DNA from: Escherichia coli | GTDB taxonomy: Bacteria; Pseudomonadota; Gammaproteobacteria; Enterobacterales; Enterobacteriaceae | Direction: 5' to 3' (one strand) | Assembly (NCBI RefSeq): GCF_044324875.1 | Contig: NZ_CP172185.1 | Length of the DNA: 64,000 bases | Made by a program: the position numbers and the translations under genes | Notes under the pieces: generated by a model | Seen by the model: only the letters and a program-made list of their open reading frames with translations | Database searches by the model: none | Told to the model about the DNA's origin: nothing | Shown: positions 3,536 through 45,084 of the stretch, piece by piece | How the letters are laid out: the number at the start of each line of letters is the position of its first letter | How positions within the stretch are numbered: position 1 is the first letter of the stretch

Positions 3536-3938
3536 GTTTCGCGTTTCCGGTCATCAAAATTAACTACACCATTGACTACACCGTGCATCGTACAAGGGCA
3601 AACCGTGACGAACAAGAGCGAACAAGTAAAACAAAATTTTCCTTTATAATCATAGCGATGAATGCACACAAAACACTACCACGAACACCCGCGAACACTA
3701 GATGATAAATAACTATCATCTATCGTTGGCATCAGGACATCTGTCACATTCCTGTCAATAGCGTTAACTGCTTCAAATTTTTGATTCATACCTGCCCCCT
3801 GGCCCCTGTCAAATGCTTGACGGCTCGCCCTAATTCTCTAAATTGTATTTCTAGAGTTGGCGAGGTTTTGAACAGCCCCCTCTCTGACCCCGGTTTATTC
3901 CATCTTACTTGTATAAGATTTGCGAAGGATGTCGAAGC

Positions 3939-4163
3939 ATGGAAAAGGGTACTGTTAAGTGGTTCAACAATGCCAAAGGGTTTGGTTTCATCTGCCCTGA
4001 AGGCGGCGGCGAAGATATTTTCGCTCATTATTCCACCATTCAGATGGATGGTTACAGAACGCTAAAAGCTGGACAATCCGTTCAGTTTGATGTCCACCAG
4101 GGGCCAAAAGGCAATCACGCCAGTGTTATTGTGCCCGTCGAAGTAGAAGCGGCAGTCGCATAG
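3939..4163 (+). CDS. cspD: cold-shock-like protein CspD
   Basis: MEKGTVKWFNNAKGFGFI... cold-shock domain; 74 aa from the internal Met; ORF track begins at 3909. Confidence 0.95.
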   Translation: MEKGTVKWFNNAKGFGFICPEGGGEDIFAHYSTIQMDGYRTLKAGQSVQFDVHQGPKGNHASVIVPVEVEAAVA

Positions 4164-4195
4164 CTCTTCTGTCTCATTGTGTACATCCTAAAGGC

Positions 4196-4228
4196 AAAAT
4201 GCCAGCCCGATCGGCTGGCATTTTTATC
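4196..4228. terminator. bidirectional intrinsic terminator between convergent cspD and macB
   Basis: Palindrome tgccagccgatcggctggca flanked by an A-run upstream and a T-run downstream. Confidence 0.6.
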
Positions 4229-10481: not shown

Positions 10482-11177
10482 ATGTTCAGAAAATTAGCAG
10501 CTGAATGTTTTGGTACTTTCTGGCTTGTTTTTGGTGGCTGTGGTAGTGCCGTACTGGCCGCAGGCTTCCCGGAATTAGGCATTGGTTTTGCCGGCGTGGC
10601 GCTGGCATTCGGTCTGACCGTTCTGACGATGGCCTTTGCTGTTGGTCATATTTCTGGTGGTCATTTTAACCCGGCGGTCACTATTGGTTTATGGGCTGGC
10701 GGACGTTTCCCGGCAAAAGAAGTCGTTGGCTACGTAATTGCCCAGGTTGTCGGCGGTATTGTTGCGGCGGCGCTGCTGTATTTAATTGCCAGTGGTAAAA
10801 CGGGTTTTGACGCGGCAGCCAGCGGTTTTGCTTCTAACGGTTATGGCGAGCATTCGCCAGGCGGTTATTCCATGCTTTCCGCGCTGGTAGTTGAACTGGT
10901 ATTGAGTGCAGGTTTCCTGCTGGTGATCCACGGCGCAACCGACAAATTCGCTCCTGCTGGTTTTGCGCCGATCGCTATTGGTCTGGCCTTAACCCTGATT
11001 CACTTAATCAGTATTCCGGTGACTAACACTTCTGTTAACCCGGCGCGCAGCACCGCGGTTGCTATCTTCCAGGGCGGCTGGGCATTAGAACAACTGTGGT
11101 TCTTCTGGGTGGTGCCAATTGTCGGCGGCATTATCGGTGGTCTGATTTACCGGACCCTGCTGGAAAAACGTAATTAA
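10482..11177 (+). CDS. aqpZ: aquaporin Z
   Basis: MIP family with two NPA motifs (HFNPAVT, NPARS); 231 aa. Confidence 0.95.
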
Positions 11178-11187
11178 TTAACGCAGA

Positions 11188-11216
11188 AGGCCTGGCGCAA
11201 TGTCAGGCCTTTTTTA
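11188..11216 (+). terminator. aqpZ intrinsic terminator
   Basis: aggcctggcgcaatgtcaggcct followed by TTTTTT. Confidence 0.7.
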
Positions 11217-11660
11217 AATATATTTATTCATCTTCCTGTTGCGCTCCTTGATGTGTTAAGCCACATATAGTCACTGGCGCAGGGAGCGCGCAGGGGGCGG
11301 CCAATCGCCGCCGCCCCCTGCACCCCCGGGCTCTGGCGAACAAAATCGCCGCTGCGCGGTGCCCTCGACTTATCCCTTGCGGCTACCGGGTCGGGCGCGA
11401 GGTAACATCCCTGTAAAACGCGCCCTCAGCCCACATCCATGTGGGCTGCCCCGGCCTTCAGGGAACGCCTCGGCGATTTTGACGCCACCAACACCGGTGC
11501 GGTTTGTAATTAAAGCGCAAGAATATCTTTAAATGAAAATGAATACCCTACCGATCCTTATGCATAACATTTCCTTTTAATTGCAACTTTACTCGTCCTT
11601 CCGCTTTCAGTAGTGTGTCATCGCGCATTTCGACTTCATCTTTGCAAGGACTGGGTTTTC

Positions 11661-12560
11661 ATGTTTTCTGGGCTGTTAATCATTCTGGTTCCCCTGATTG
11701 TGGGTTACCTCATTCCTCTTCGCCAAAAAGCTGCATTAAGAGTTATTAATCAGCTATTAAGCTGGATGGTTTACCTCATTCTCTTTTTTATGGGTATCAG
11801 TCTGGCGTTTCTCGATAACCTCGCCAGTAACCTGTTGGCGATTCTGCATTATTCCGCCGTCAGCATTACCATTATTTTACTCTGCAATATTATTGCGTTG
11901 TTGTGGCTGGAGCGCGGTCTGCCGTGGCGCAACCACCACCAGCAAGAAAAACTCCCGTCGCGTATTGCGATGGCGCTGGAGTCGCTAAAACTGTGCGGCG
12001 TAGTAGTGATTGGTTTTGCCATTGGTCTGAGTGGACTGGCTTTCTTACAACACGCGACCGAAGCCAGTGAATACACCTTAATTCTGCTACTTTTCCTCGT
12101 CGGTATTCAGTTGCGCAATAATGGCATGACCTTAAAGCAGATTGTCCTTAATCGCCGGGGAATGATTGTCGCCGTGGTGGTGGTTGCCAGTTCATTAATT
12201 GGTGGTTTAATTAACGCCTTTATTCTTGATCTTCCCATCAATACCGCGCTGGCAATGGCCTCTGGTTTCGGCTGGTATTCTCTTTCCGGTATTTTATTGA
12301 CCGAATCTTTTGGTCCGGTAATCGGGAGCGCGGCGTTTTTTAATGATCTGGCCCGTGAGCTGATTGCAATTATGTTGATCCCTGGGCTGATTCGCCGCAG
12401 CCGCTCTACCGCACTGGGCTTATGCGGTGCGACGTCGATGGATTTCACCCTGCCCGTTCTTCAACGTACTGGCGGGCTGGATATGGTCCCGGCGGCAATT
12501 GTTCACGGTTTTATTCTTAGCCTGTTAGTGCCGATCCTCATCGCCTTTTTCTCTGCGTAA
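11661..12560 (+). CDS. lysO: lysine exporter LysO (YbjE)
   Basis: Polytopic membrane protein, 299 aa from MFSGLLIILVPLIVGYLIP; conserved position next to aqpZ. Confidence 0.9.
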   Translation: MFSGLLIILVPLIVGYLIPLRQKAALRVINQLLSWMVYLILFFMGISLAFLDNLASNLLAILHYSAVSITIILLCNIIALLWLERGLPWRNHHQQEKLPSRIAMALESLKLCGVVVIGFAIGLSGLAFLQHATEASEYTLILLLFLVGIQLRNNGMTLKQIVLNRRGMIVAVVVVASSLIGGLINAFILDLPINTALAMASGFGWYSLSGILLTESFGPVIGSAAFFNDLARELIAIMLIPGLIRRSRSTALGLCGATSMDFTLPVLQRTGGLDMVPAAIVHGFILSLLVPILIAFFSA

Positions 12561-44986: not shown

Positions 44987-45065
44987 GCCACTGCTTTTCT
45001 TTGATGTCCCCATTTTGTGGAGCCCATCAACCCCGCCATTTCGGTTCAAGGTTGGTGGGTTTTTT
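44987..45065 (+). ncRNA. rybB: RybB small regulatory RNA (sigma-E dependent, Hfq-binding)
   Basis: gccactgcttttctttgatgtcccc...ggttcaaggttggtgggtttttt matches my recollection of RybB including the 5' seed and terminator hairpin plus U-tail; located between ybjL and rcdA as in K-12. Confidence 0.85.
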
Positions 45066-45084
45066 GTTGCCTATAATTTATCTA

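What the first reader, a model, noticed from the sequence alone, without database searches (positions are those of the whole stretch)
11270..11480. GC-rich structured element in the aqpZ-lysO intergenic region
A ~200-bp stretch far above local GC content contains a strong hairpin (cagggggcggc / gccgccccctg at 11291..11320) and further G/C-rich inverted repeats. It does not look like a standard REP unit to me. It may be a known intergenic repeat family, a structured 5' leader for lysO, or a small RNA; I cannot tell from sequence alone.
Basis: seen in the sequence. Interest (0 to 1): 0.3.

Follow-up and report, generated by a model that had tools for sequence, protein, structure and literature searches.

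The report
TRIP1a intergenic repeat of E. coli
The GC-rich, hairpin-filled stretch between aqpZ and lysO is a copy of TRIP1, an already catalogued dispersed repeat of E. coli rather than a lysO leader; its conserved core looks like a known RNA motif class with two loops shaped like CsrA-binding sites, but nothing shows that it is transcribed or bound.

Summary
Window 11270-11480 is 62-73% G+C in a 33-48% background, holds a perfect 12-bp hairpin (11290-11321) and folds far better than shuffles on both strands.

It is the core of TRIP1a (about 11238-11519), a repeat described by Rudd (1999) and surveyed by Li et al. (2024). Nearly every E. coli genome has it, with 1-8 matching places (median 3), always in a few fixed intergenic sites. 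The same element sits at unrelated loci, and at this locus other strains carry it inverted or truncated. It also lies upstream of the conserved lysO promoter region, so it is not a lysO leader.

Not stated in the one held paper on TRIP1: a 159-nt module (11331-11489, minus strand) has the architecture of Rfam's TwoAYGGAY motif, which shares a clan with CsrB. Rfam scores it below threshold (30-33 bits; gathering score 43). A model built from TRIP1 modules finds a bona fide TwoAYGGAY element full-length (E about 1e-7). Its loops, ACAUGGAUGU and ACAGGGAUGU, resemble the CsrA SELEX consensus.

No conserved promoter was found, there is no CsrA CLIP-seq peak, and the strand is undecided.

Verdict: a known repeat, with a modest new annotation lead.

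The parts
11187..11215 (+). aqpZ intrinsic terminator (stem AAGGCCTG/CAGGCCTT, 9-nt loop, T-run). It lies outside the repeat and marks the end of the aqpZ transcript before TRIP1a.
   Evidence: Inverted repeat I16; sequence. Li et al. place TRIP1a just downstream of the apparent aqpZ terminator. The simple terminator scan missed it because the loop exceeds 8 nt.
11238..11519 (+). Whole TRIP1a repeat copy, from GTTGCGCTCC to AAAGCGCA. The 266-bp TRIP1a of the literature corresponds to about 11238-11503.
   Evidence: Alignments to copies at other loci. BLAST to K-12 915016-915281. Paper coordinates.
11238..11289 (+). Variable left arm (mean pairwise identity 0.79 among 17 copies). It includes the first unit of an 11-nt tandem direct repeat, GCGCAGGGAGC / GCGCAGGGGGC, at 11277-11298.
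11290..11321 (.). It is the most conserved segment (0.956), with compensatory G-C to A-T changes in other copies.
11324..11329 (+). First CCCCGG direct repeat. With 11449-11454 it brackets the 125 nt that are missing from the short forms (TRIP1b; E. coli 536 allele).
   Evidence: 125-bp internal deletion reported.
11449..11454 (+). Second CCCCGG direct repeat (deletion end point).
11331..11489 (-). 159-nt TwoAYGGAY-like module: a closing stem P1, inner stems, and two hairpins with GGA in their loops. It was modelled as covariance model R1.
   Evidence: Rfam RF01731 29.8 bits, E = 0.022. Consensus fold with 51 pairs, 5 of them compensatory. R1 search results.
11341..11356 (-). 3' arm of closing stem P1 (CGGCGAUUUUG on the minus strand).
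   Evidence: (I1).
11466..11481 (-). 5' arm of closing stem P1 (CAAAAUCGCCG on the minus strand).
   Evidence: (I1).
11427..11448 (-). Hairpin A: CAGCCCACA-UGGA-UGUGGGCUG, with ACAUGGAUGU at 11433-11442. The loop is invariant, and three stem pairs are changed compensatorily in TRIP1d.
11393..11425 (-). Hairpin B: GGGCGCG...ACA-GGGA-UGU...CGCGCCC, with ACAGGGAUGU at 11405-11414. UUACAGGGAUGU matches 11 of 12 positions of the CsrA SELEX consensus.
11479..11510 (+). Promoter-like TTGACG-N20-TGTAAT in the right arm, facing lysO. It matches the 'constitutive RpoD promoter' listed for ybjE by genomic SELEX.
11557..11660 (+). lysO upstream region, conserved in all alleles regardless of which TRIP1 form is present. 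It is outside the repeat.

Best explanation
The stretch is the structured core of TRIP1a, one copy of the TRIP1 dispersed intergenic repeat of Escherichia. The copy is about 282 bp and non-coding. It lies just after the aqpZ terminator and upstream of the conserved lysO promoter region. It has four parts: a variable left arm, a very stable 12-bp G+C hairpin, a 159-nt module, and a variable right arm. On the minus strand the module folds into a closed multi-stem structure with two hairpins whose loops carry GGA. That module has the architecture of the TwoAYGGAY RNA motif class. Shown: it is a repeat family member; its hairpin and module are better conserved than its arms and keep their stems through compensatory changes; short forms are 125-nt deletions between CCCCGG direct repeats; and the locus carries several allelic forms, including inverted ones. 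Taken from the literature: TRIP1 copies act as substrates for homologous recombination, giving large inversions, mostly between TRIP1a and TRIP1c. Inferred: TRIP1 is a relic of a non-autonomous, structure-bearing repeat that settled in 'safe' sites just 3' of genes. In this window the GGA strand is antisense to both neighbours and has no recognisable promoter, so this copy is most likely silent, passive DNA and not a regulator of lysO. The one possible exception is that its right arm may supply a weak outward promoter towards lysO.
For: Identity: 95% identical to K-12 TRIP1a over 309 nt at the same locus, and the paper's coordinates and description match. Distribution: 5425 of 5426 complete E. 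coli genomes have a match, with 1-8 places (median 3). Copies lie at dusC-yohP, putP-efeU and alx-sstT. An exact-pattern scan of 100,044 species genomes found true copies only in Escherichia species and two Pseudocitrobacter species. Structure: z = -5.3 to -5.8 for the whole element. Segment identities are 0.956 (hairpin) and 0.925 (module) against 0.79 and 0.72 for the arms. Five module pairs and two big-hairpin pairs show compensatory changes. Not a lysO leader: inverted and deleted alleles with unrelated flanks; five insert-length classes (213 to 388 bp) in 60 sampled genomes. Non-coding: copies differ by 1-nt indels, the only ORF has no Pfam match, and PGAP annotates nothing there. Silence: no promoter-like or terminator-like site in the element. 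No sigma-70-like site shared by 5 or more of 18 copies. No CsrA CLIP-seq peak at TRIP1a or TRIP1c. No 3' end listed near aqpZ, lysO, dusC or yohP in Term-seq tables. Recombination role: 156 rearrangements, 88% between TRIP1a and TRIP1c. Two sampled genomes here have aqpZ and lysO flanks in separate places.
Against: The core is distinctly better conserved than the arms, including between Escherichia and Pseudocitrobacter (0.91 in the module, 1.00 in the hairpin). The loop sequences are invariant while the stems covary. This is more than a decaying relic should show and suggests some function of the folded strand. Gene conversion among copies and template-switch 'correction' within palindromes could mimic this. 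No terminal inverted repeats or target-site duplications could be defined cleanly, and no partner transposase is known, so 'mobile relic' is an inference. Absence of CLIP-seq or Term-seq signal comes from one or two laboratory conditions, and reads from a repeat may map ambiguously. A genomic SELEX study places an RNA polymerase binding site in this spacer and picks a motif inside the right arm, so the copy may not be fully passive.
Confidence: 0.7

Rival explanations
1. TRIP1 long forms encode, on the GGA strand, a TwoAYGGAY-type RNA that binds CsrA. One CsrA dimer would bridge the two hairpin loops, 28 nt apart. The RNA would act as a small decoy, or would bring the co-transcribed neighbour under CsrA control. 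The orientation allele decides whether read-through from the upstream gene produces the active strand.
For: ACANGGAYGT occurs only twice in the 64-kb window, both times here, on one strand and in hairpin loops (0.69 expected in the whole window). UUACAGGGAUGU matches 11 of 12 positions of the SELEX consensus RUACARGGAUGU, and ACAUGGAUGU keeps the invariant ACA, GGA and GU. All long copies hit Rfam TwoAYGGAY full-length at 30-33 bits. TwoAYGGAY is in clan CL00106 together with CsrB and has been proposed as a CsrA binder. Model R1, built only from TRIP1 modules, finds a bona fide TwoAYGGAY element (49.2 bits, above the gathering score of 43) full-length at E = 1.7e-7. Loops are invariant while stems covary. 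The minus strand is more stable in all 17 copies.
Against: There is no CsrA CLIP-seq peak and no matching peak sequence in E. coli K-12, and dusC and ybjE are flagged 'No' in all four binding and prediction columns of the integrated table. No promoter or terminator is conserved in the element. In this window and in K-12 TRIP1a, the GGA strand is antisense to both neighbours. Orientation is not consistent among loci or strains. Short forms and a 25-nt deletion of hairpin A exist, so the module is dispensable. The G-U versus A-C strand test is inconclusive. Stems of 9-10 bp are longer than those favoured in SELEX. Rfam score is below the gathering threshold.
Confidence: 0.15
2. The right arm of TRIP1a has been co-opted as the lysO promoter (TTGACG-N20-TGTAAT, 11479-11510, + strand). 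In that case the repeat matters for lysO transcription initiation, though not as a leader.
For: Genomic SELEX with RpoD holoenzyme lists exactly this motif as the constitutive promoter of ybjE in the ybjE-aqpZ spacer. It is the only match in the window and in the K-12 locus. The -35 TTGACG lies in the best-conserved part of the right arm.
Against: The spacer is 20 nt by my count (the paper writes 19), which is poor for sigma-70. The motif was picked by eye under a low-resolution binding peak. Strains with the inverted or short allele lack it in this orientation, yet keep the 105 bp upstream of lysO unchanged, so a promoter closer to lysO is likely. The final T of the -10 hexamer is present only in TRIP1a copies. 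No 5'-end data could be consulted.
Confidence: 0.12
3. TRIP1 works at the DNA or mRNA-3'-end level as REP/BIME elements do. Its stable hairpins would protect the upstream mRNA from 3' exonucleases, block read-through into lysO, or bind nucleoid proteins or gyrase.
For: All known TRIP1 sites lie 38-96 bp downstream of a stop codon, and the Pseudocitrobacter copy lies about 50 bp after mdlB. The hairpins are very stable on both strands, so this function would be independent of orientation, which fits the orientation polymorphism.
Against: Here the element follows a complete intrinsic terminator. There is no sequence or model similarity to REP/naRNA4. Location 3' of genes is also what is expected for any tolerated insertion. 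No experimental data exist.
Confidence: 0.08
4. It is a structured 5' leader or riboswitch-like element of lysO.
For: It lies upstream of lysO on the same strand, and lysO is known to be regulated by lysine through ArgP (background knowledge; references listed).
Against: The same element occurs at unrelated loci. It is inverted or deleted at this locus in many strains. No riboswitch family matches it. The only promoter candidate lies at its downstream end.
Confidence: 0.02

Closest known systems
TRIP1 repeats of E. coli (TRIP1a-e; Rudd 1999, Li et al. 2024, PMC10888264)
   Same: Same locus (aqpZ-lysO/ybjE), same sequence (95% to K-12 TRIP1a), same size, same G+C content and same predicted branched fold. 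This copy is TRIP1a.
   Different: Nothing essential. In this strain the aqpZ-lysO insert is 376 bp, against 387-388 bp in K-12-like strains. My boundaries extend about 16 bp further at the lysO side.
TwoAYGGAY RNA motif (Rfam RF01731; Weinberg et al. 2010)
   Same: A closing stem P1 enclosing two adjacent hairpins whose loops read A-N-GGA-Y, flanked by ACA...UGU. Multi-copy in a genome (five or more copies in Psychromonas ingrahamii). The loops ACAUGGAUGU and ACAGGGAYGU are identical to those of seed members. There is reciprocal model similarity to a member that passes the Rfam threshold.
   Different: It scores 30-33 bits, below the gathering score of 43. The second loop is AGGGAU (R, not Y, at position 2). 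Extra inner stems make it a multi-branch structure. It is embedded in a larger repeat with a 12-bp G+C hairpin. The function of TwoAYGGAY itself has never been tested.
CsrB/CsrC-type CsrA-sequestering sRNAs (Rfam clan CL00106)
   Same: GGA motifs presented in hairpin loops, with CA..GGAUG context like the CAGGA(U/A/C)G repeats of CsrB.
   Different: Only two sites, against about 18 in CsrB. No promoter, no terminator, no CLIP-seq signal, not a single-copy gene, and orientation varies.
REP/BIME and other enterobacterial intergenic repeats (ERIC/IRU, Box C) and MITEs
   Same: Short, non-coding, palindromic, multi-copy. Found between genes, mostly 3' of coding regions. Variable presence and orientation among strains.
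   Different: No sequence or model similarity to REP. Far fewer copies (1-8, against hundreds). Each TRIP1 type is tied to one locus. No clear terminal inverted repeats or target duplications were found.

Membership tests
TRIP1 repeat family (TRIP1a) | High sequence identity to the reference K-12 TRIP1a (NC_000913.3 915016-915281) | tested here: met
   95.1% over 309 nt to L004:2994-3302, which contains that interval; alignments.
TRIP1 repeat family (TRIP1a) | Location between aqpZ and ybjE/lysO, just downstream of the aqpZ terminator | tested here: met
   aqpZ ends at 11177, the terminator spans 11187-11215, the repeat starts about 11238, and lysO starts at 11661.
TRIP1 repeat family (TRIP1a) | Multi-copy in E. 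coli, with copies at putP-efeU, dusC-yohP and alx-sstT; 62-65% G+C; stable branched fold | tested here: met
   copies; G+C; fold.
TwoAYGGAY RNA (Rfam RF01731) | Score at or above Rfam's gathering threshold (43 bits) | tested here: not met
   29.8 bits in the window and 30.9-33.1 bits in other long copies. In the whole-window scan the match was not listed.
TwoAYGGAY RNA (Rfam RF01731) | Two terminal loops each carrying AYGGAY | tested here: inconclusive
   Loop A is AUGGAU, which fits. Loop B is AGGGAU, AGGGAC or AAGGAC, with R at position 2. However, members of Weinberg's own alignment also have ACAGGGACGU and UCAGGGAUGA.
TwoAYGGAY RNA (Rfam RF01731) | A P1 stem closing the two hairpins | tested here: met
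   11-bp P1, CAAAAUCGCCG/CGGCGAUUUUG, extended by GGCG/CGCC. P1 is described as variable in length.
TwoAYGGAY RNA (Rfam RF01731) | Structural homology to an accepted member | tested here: met
   Model R1 (TRIP1 modules only) aligns full-length to L011:2179-2337 and L024:5631-5789 at 39.8 and 38.4 bits, E about 1e-7; background is 15.5 bits or less. The cores of these two elements score 49.2 bits against RF01731.
CsrA-sequestering sRNA (CsrB/CsrC type) | Bound by CsrA in vivo | tested here: not met
   No CLIP-seq peak with coordinates 9150xx-9152xx or 22291xx-22293xx, and no peak containing the loop sequences, in Supplementary Data 1 of PMC5694010. Caveat: one growth condition, and the sequence is a repeat.
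CsrA-sequestering sRNA (CsrB/CsrC type) | Own promoter and terminator giving a discrete, abundant transcript | tested here: not met
   No promoter-like or terminator-like sites. No 3' ends listed. Transcription itself could not be measured with these tools.
CsrA-sequestering sRNA (CsrB/CsrC type) | GGA motifs in hairpin loops matching the CsrA binding consensus | tested here: met
   Two sites, matching 11/12 and 9/12 positions of RUACARGGAUGU, both in loops of the minimum-free-energy fold.
REP/BIME | REP consensus palindrome (detected by Rfam's naRNA4 model) | tested here: not met
   No naRNA4 match in 10900-11900 at E up to 10, whereas REP arrays in L017 and L026 score 69-84 bits.
lysO 5' leader / riboswitch | Part of the lysO transcript and conserved in position and orientation with lysO | tested here: not met
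   Inverted, truncated and different-length alleles upstream of an unchanged lysO region. No riboswitch family match.
MITE (non-autonomous transposon) | Terminal inverted repeats, target-site duplication, and a related autonomous element | tested here: inconclusive
   Only a weak end similarity (TTGCGCT...TTT at both ends). No duplication could be defined and no empty site was found in 60 sampled genomes. Plasmid matches are captured chromosomal putP-efeU DNA, not an insertion sequence.

The most novel reading that the evidence does not exclude
TRIP1 long forms are the enterobacterial branch of the TwoAYGGAY class. On this reading they are a repeat-borne RNA module that presents two high-affinity CsrA sites. 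Whether a given gene's transcript carries it depends on the orientation or deletion allele at that locus. The TRIP1 polymorphism would then be a natural on/off switch that couples neighbouring transporter genes (or the free CsrA pool) to the Csr system. It would also give the orphan TwoAYGGAY motif its first tractable model organism.
Probability: 0.12. Interest if true: 0.55.

Novelty: already known. Interest (0 to 1): 0.25.

Why it matters
For annotation, the stretch can be labelled TRIP1a and removed from lists of candidate lysO leaders or riboswitches. Strain-to-strain differences in this spacer are repeat alleles, not regulatory innovations. TRIP1a is also a documented break point for megabase inversions with TRIP1c, which matters for assembly and synteny work. 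The one forward-looking point is the link between TRIP1 and the orphan TwoAYGGAY motif. If the two loops do bind CsrA, E. coli K-12 offers a ready system for testing a motif that has been uncharacterised since 2010: TRIP1c lies co-directionally behind dusC.

Tried and rejected
1. lysO leader or riboswitch: rejected on comparative grounds and by the lack of any riboswitch match.

2. REP/BIME: no naRNA4 or REP match.

3. Protein coding: the 57-aa ORF at 11359-11532 has no Pfam match, and the frame is broken by 1-nt indels in other copies.

4. Own promoter or terminator: the simple scan found none in the element. My lenient scan (8 or more of 12 positions, spacer 16-18) found no site shared by 5 or more of 18 copies.

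5. Strand assignment from G-U versus A-C pairs: inconclusive. Each strand's predicted structure contains its own G-U pairs, and the 53 pairs common to both predictions give 5 G-U against 2 A-C cells. About 7.5 of the 11.5 kcal/mol advantage of the minus strand is compositional.

6. In-place inversion through flanking inverted repeats: rejected. Forward and reverse alleles have unrelated 40-55-nt flanks.

7. Search for an empty site: none among 60 genomes sampled across the ranking.

8. Insertion sequence or plasmid origin: plasmid matches are captured putP-efeU segments carrying TRIP1b.

9. CsrA CLIP-seq and Term-seq supplements: no signal. The single '9152' text match in the Term-seq file could not be tied to a genome position.

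10. The Thomason 2015 transcription-start-site paper is not held, and the LysO topology paper has no promoter data.

11. The Pseudocitrobacter sister element has only one partial match in E. coli, inside an acquired island of strain CT29, and no module there.

Full report
**Observation.** The window is E. coli. aqpZ (10482-11177, +) is followed by an intrinsic terminator (11187-11215), and lysO starts at 11661 (+). Between them, G+C rises to 0.62-0.73 over 11250-11499, against 0.33-0.48 in the flanks. It folds at -30.4 kcal/mol on the + strand and -36.3 on the - strand, with z about -5. The whole element folds much better than dinucleotide shuffles on both strands, with z = -5.3 (+) and -5.8 (-). 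The feature is wider than reported, about 11238-11519.

**Identity.** Megablast against 5,426 complete E. coli genomes finds the segment in 5,425 of them, at 1-8 places per genome (median 3), and nothing is annotated under the listed matches. A second locus, dusC-yohP, turned up in strain 536. A literature search on the flanking genes led to Li et al. 2024 (PMC10888264). That paper describes the TRIP1 repeats first reported by Rudd in 1999.
- TRIP1a lies between aqpZ and ybjE/lysO (K-12 915016-915281).
- TRIP1b lies at putP-efeU and is short, lacking an internal 125 bp.
- TRIP1c lies at dusC(yohI)-yohG.
- TRIP1d lies at alx-sstT, and TRIP1e at copA-ybaP.

I fetched these loci. The window copy is 95% identical to K-12 TRIP1a at the same position, 94% to K-12 TRIP1c and 90% to TRIP1d. 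It is the only copy in the 64-kb window. The finding is therefore the core of TRIP1a, a known element whose function is unknown.

**Anatomy.** Alignment of 17 distinct long copies shows four parts:
- a variable left arm starting at GTTGCGCTCC (mean identity 0.79);
- the 12-bp hairpin (0.956);
- a 159-nt module (0.925);
- a variable right end (0.72).

Short forms (K-12 TRIP1b; the aqpZ-lysO allele of strain 536) lack exactly the 125 nt between two CCCCGG direct repeats (11324-11329 and 11449-11454). Strain E69 has a long form with the same flanks as the short form of 536. This suggests the short form arose by deletion between the direct repeats, and probably more than once. Other copies carry an 11-nt or a 25-nt deletion.

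Stems are kept through compensatory changes. There are three pairs in hairpin A of TRIP1d, one in hairpin B, one in an inner stem, and two in the big hairpin of the 536-type TRIP1c. Palindrome-templated mutation or gene conversion could contribute to this, so it is suggestive of constraint rather than proof.

**Not a lysO leader.** Three points argue against a leader.
- The same element sits at unrelated loci.
- At this locus, 536 and E69 carry it in the opposite orientation with unrelated 40-55-nt flanks. Li et al. count 3448 forward and 1255 reverse TRIP1a copies.
- A probe made of the conserved aqpZ end joined to the conserved lysO upstream region shows insert lengths of 213, 307, 349-350, 376 (this window) and 387-388 bp (K-12) among 60 genomes sampled across the ranking. 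None is empty, and two have the flanks in separate places.

The lysO-proximal 105 bp (11557-11660) are conserved in all of them.

**Relation to a known RNA motif.** A permissive Rfam scan of 1 kb gave one notable match. The minus strand 11343-11482 aligns full-length to TwoAYGGAY (RF01731) at 29.8 bits, E = 0.022, below the gathering score of 43. All other long copies give 30.9-33.1 bits. In a scan of the whole window the match was not listed, so by itself it is weak.

Two further results strengthen it. First, in both Pseudocitrobacter species that carry TRIP1 (downstream of mdlB), a different GC-rich element lies about 58 nt away in the opposite orientation. Its core passes the Rfam threshold (49.2 bits). 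It has the same layout: a closing stem GGAAAUCGG/CCGAUUUCC, two GGA-loop hairpins and a 3' G+C hairpin. Second, a covariance model built only from 15 TRIP1 modules (alignment A4, model R1) finds that element full-length at 39.8 and 38.4 bits, E about 1e-7. The best background in 83 kb is 15.5 bits.

Weinberg's original alignment shows TwoAYGGAY as a multi-copy element in Psychromonas ingrahamii, with loops ACAUGGAUGU and ACAGGGACGU, the same decamers as in TRIP1. In the window, ACANGGAYGT occurs only twice in 64 kb, both here, 28 nt apart on one strand.

TwoAYGGAY shares Rfam clan CL00106 with CsrB and has been proposed, without experiments, to bind CsrA. The SELEX consensus for CsrA is RUACARGGAUGU, with ACA and GGA invariant. 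Site B (UUACAGGGAUGU) matches 11 of 12 positions and site A matches 9 of 12.

**Evidence against an active CsrA-binding RNA here.**
- No promoter-like or terminator-like site lies in the element, and none is shared among copies.
- In this window and in K-12 TRIP1a, the GGA strand is antisense to both neighbours. Orientation relative to the upstream gene differs among loci and strains.
- The published CsrA CLIP-seq peak list for K-12 has no peak at TRIP1a or TRIP1c and no peak containing the loop sequences. dusC and ybjE are unaffected by csrA.
- Term-seq tables list no 3' ends near these genes.
- The strand test based on G-U versus A-C pairs is inconclusive.
- The module is dispensable in many strains.

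**A possible promoter in the right arm.** A genomic SELEX study lists 'TTGACG-19-TGTAAT' as the constitutive RpoD promoter of ybjE in this spacer. That sequence is 11479-11510 (+), inside the right arm of TRIP1a, with a 20-nt spacer by my count. If it is real, transcription would start after all the GC-rich structure. The repeat would then be a promoter donor and still not a leader. Alleles lacking it in this orientation keep the proximal lysO region, so a closer promoter is at least as likely.

**Distribution.** An exact-pattern scan of one genome per species (100,044 species), using a conserved 22-mer of the right arm, found true copies only in Escherichia (coli, albertii, whittamii and unnamed species) and in Pseudocitrobacter faecalis and vendiensis. 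It also found a few contaminant contigs and chance hits. Diverged copies would be missed by exact matching.

**Verdict.** This is a known repeat, TRIP1a. The most likely reading is a largely passive, structure-bearing repeat whose documented effect is as a recombination substrate (confidence 0.7). The link to the TwoAYGGAY class and the CsrA-like loops is a modest lead that the one held paper on TRIP1 does not mention. It is testable in K-12 and currently unsupported by in-vivo data. I put about 0.15 on the narrower CsrA-binding rival and 0.12 on the broader on/off-switch reading given as the novel case.

Noticed in passing
L011:2179-2337 (+) and L024:5631-5789 (+): In Pseudocitrobacter faecalis and P. 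vendiensis, a second GC-rich element with the same architecture as the TRIP1 module but a different sequence lies head-to-head about 58 nt from the TRIP1 copy, between mdlB and glnK-amtB. Its core passes Rfam's TwoAYGGAY threshold (49.2 bits).
   Followed up: partly
L003:28800-29090 (E. coli 536, aqpZ-lysO) and L021:3840-4208 (E. coli E69): At the aqpZ-lysO locus some strains carry TRIP1 inverted (E69, long form; 536, short form) with flanks unrelated to those of the forward allele. The spacer has at least five length classes, and none of 60 sampled genomes is empty. How the alternative alleles arose is unexplained.
   Followed up: partly
window 44990-45068 (+): RybB sRNA, 104 bits against Rfam RF00110. 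It is the only match above the gathering score in the window.
   Followed up: no
window 3834-4227 (+): Sub-threshold match to the cspA thermoregulator model (41.6 bits, gathering score 78, E = 2.7e-7). By gene order this is probably the cspD region.
   Followed up: no
L009 (Pseudobutyrivibrio xylanivorans, 432-bp contig), L025 (Bacillus sp., 583-bp contig), L010 ('Proteobacteria' MAG): Tiny low-coverage contigs in non-enterobacterial assemblies carry near-identical E. coli TRIP1 sequence, most likely contamination. L025 is a mosaic of a TRIP1b left flank, a TRIP1d core and a TRIP1a right flank.
   Followed up: no
L026:4755-5297 and L017:3399-3622: Tandem arrays of REP/BIME units (Rfam naRNA4, 69-84 bits) lie a few kb from TRIP1 copies in Escherichia sp. 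MOD1-EC7003 and E. whittamii.
   Followed up: no
window 11303-11310 and 11471-11478: The loop and 3' side of the big hairpin (AATCGCCG) is perfectly complementary to the 5' arm of P1 (CGGCGATT). It also repeats the P1 partner as a direct repeat (11303-11321 against 11344-11362, 79%). An alternative pairing or pseudoknot is possible.
   Followed up: no
L032:1501-1582 (E. coli CT29): An 82-nt match (85%) to the G+C hairpin part of the Pseudocitrobacter sister element lies downstream of a YhcH-family gene, inside an apparently acquired island next to an IS66 fragment. No module is detected there.
   Followed up: partly
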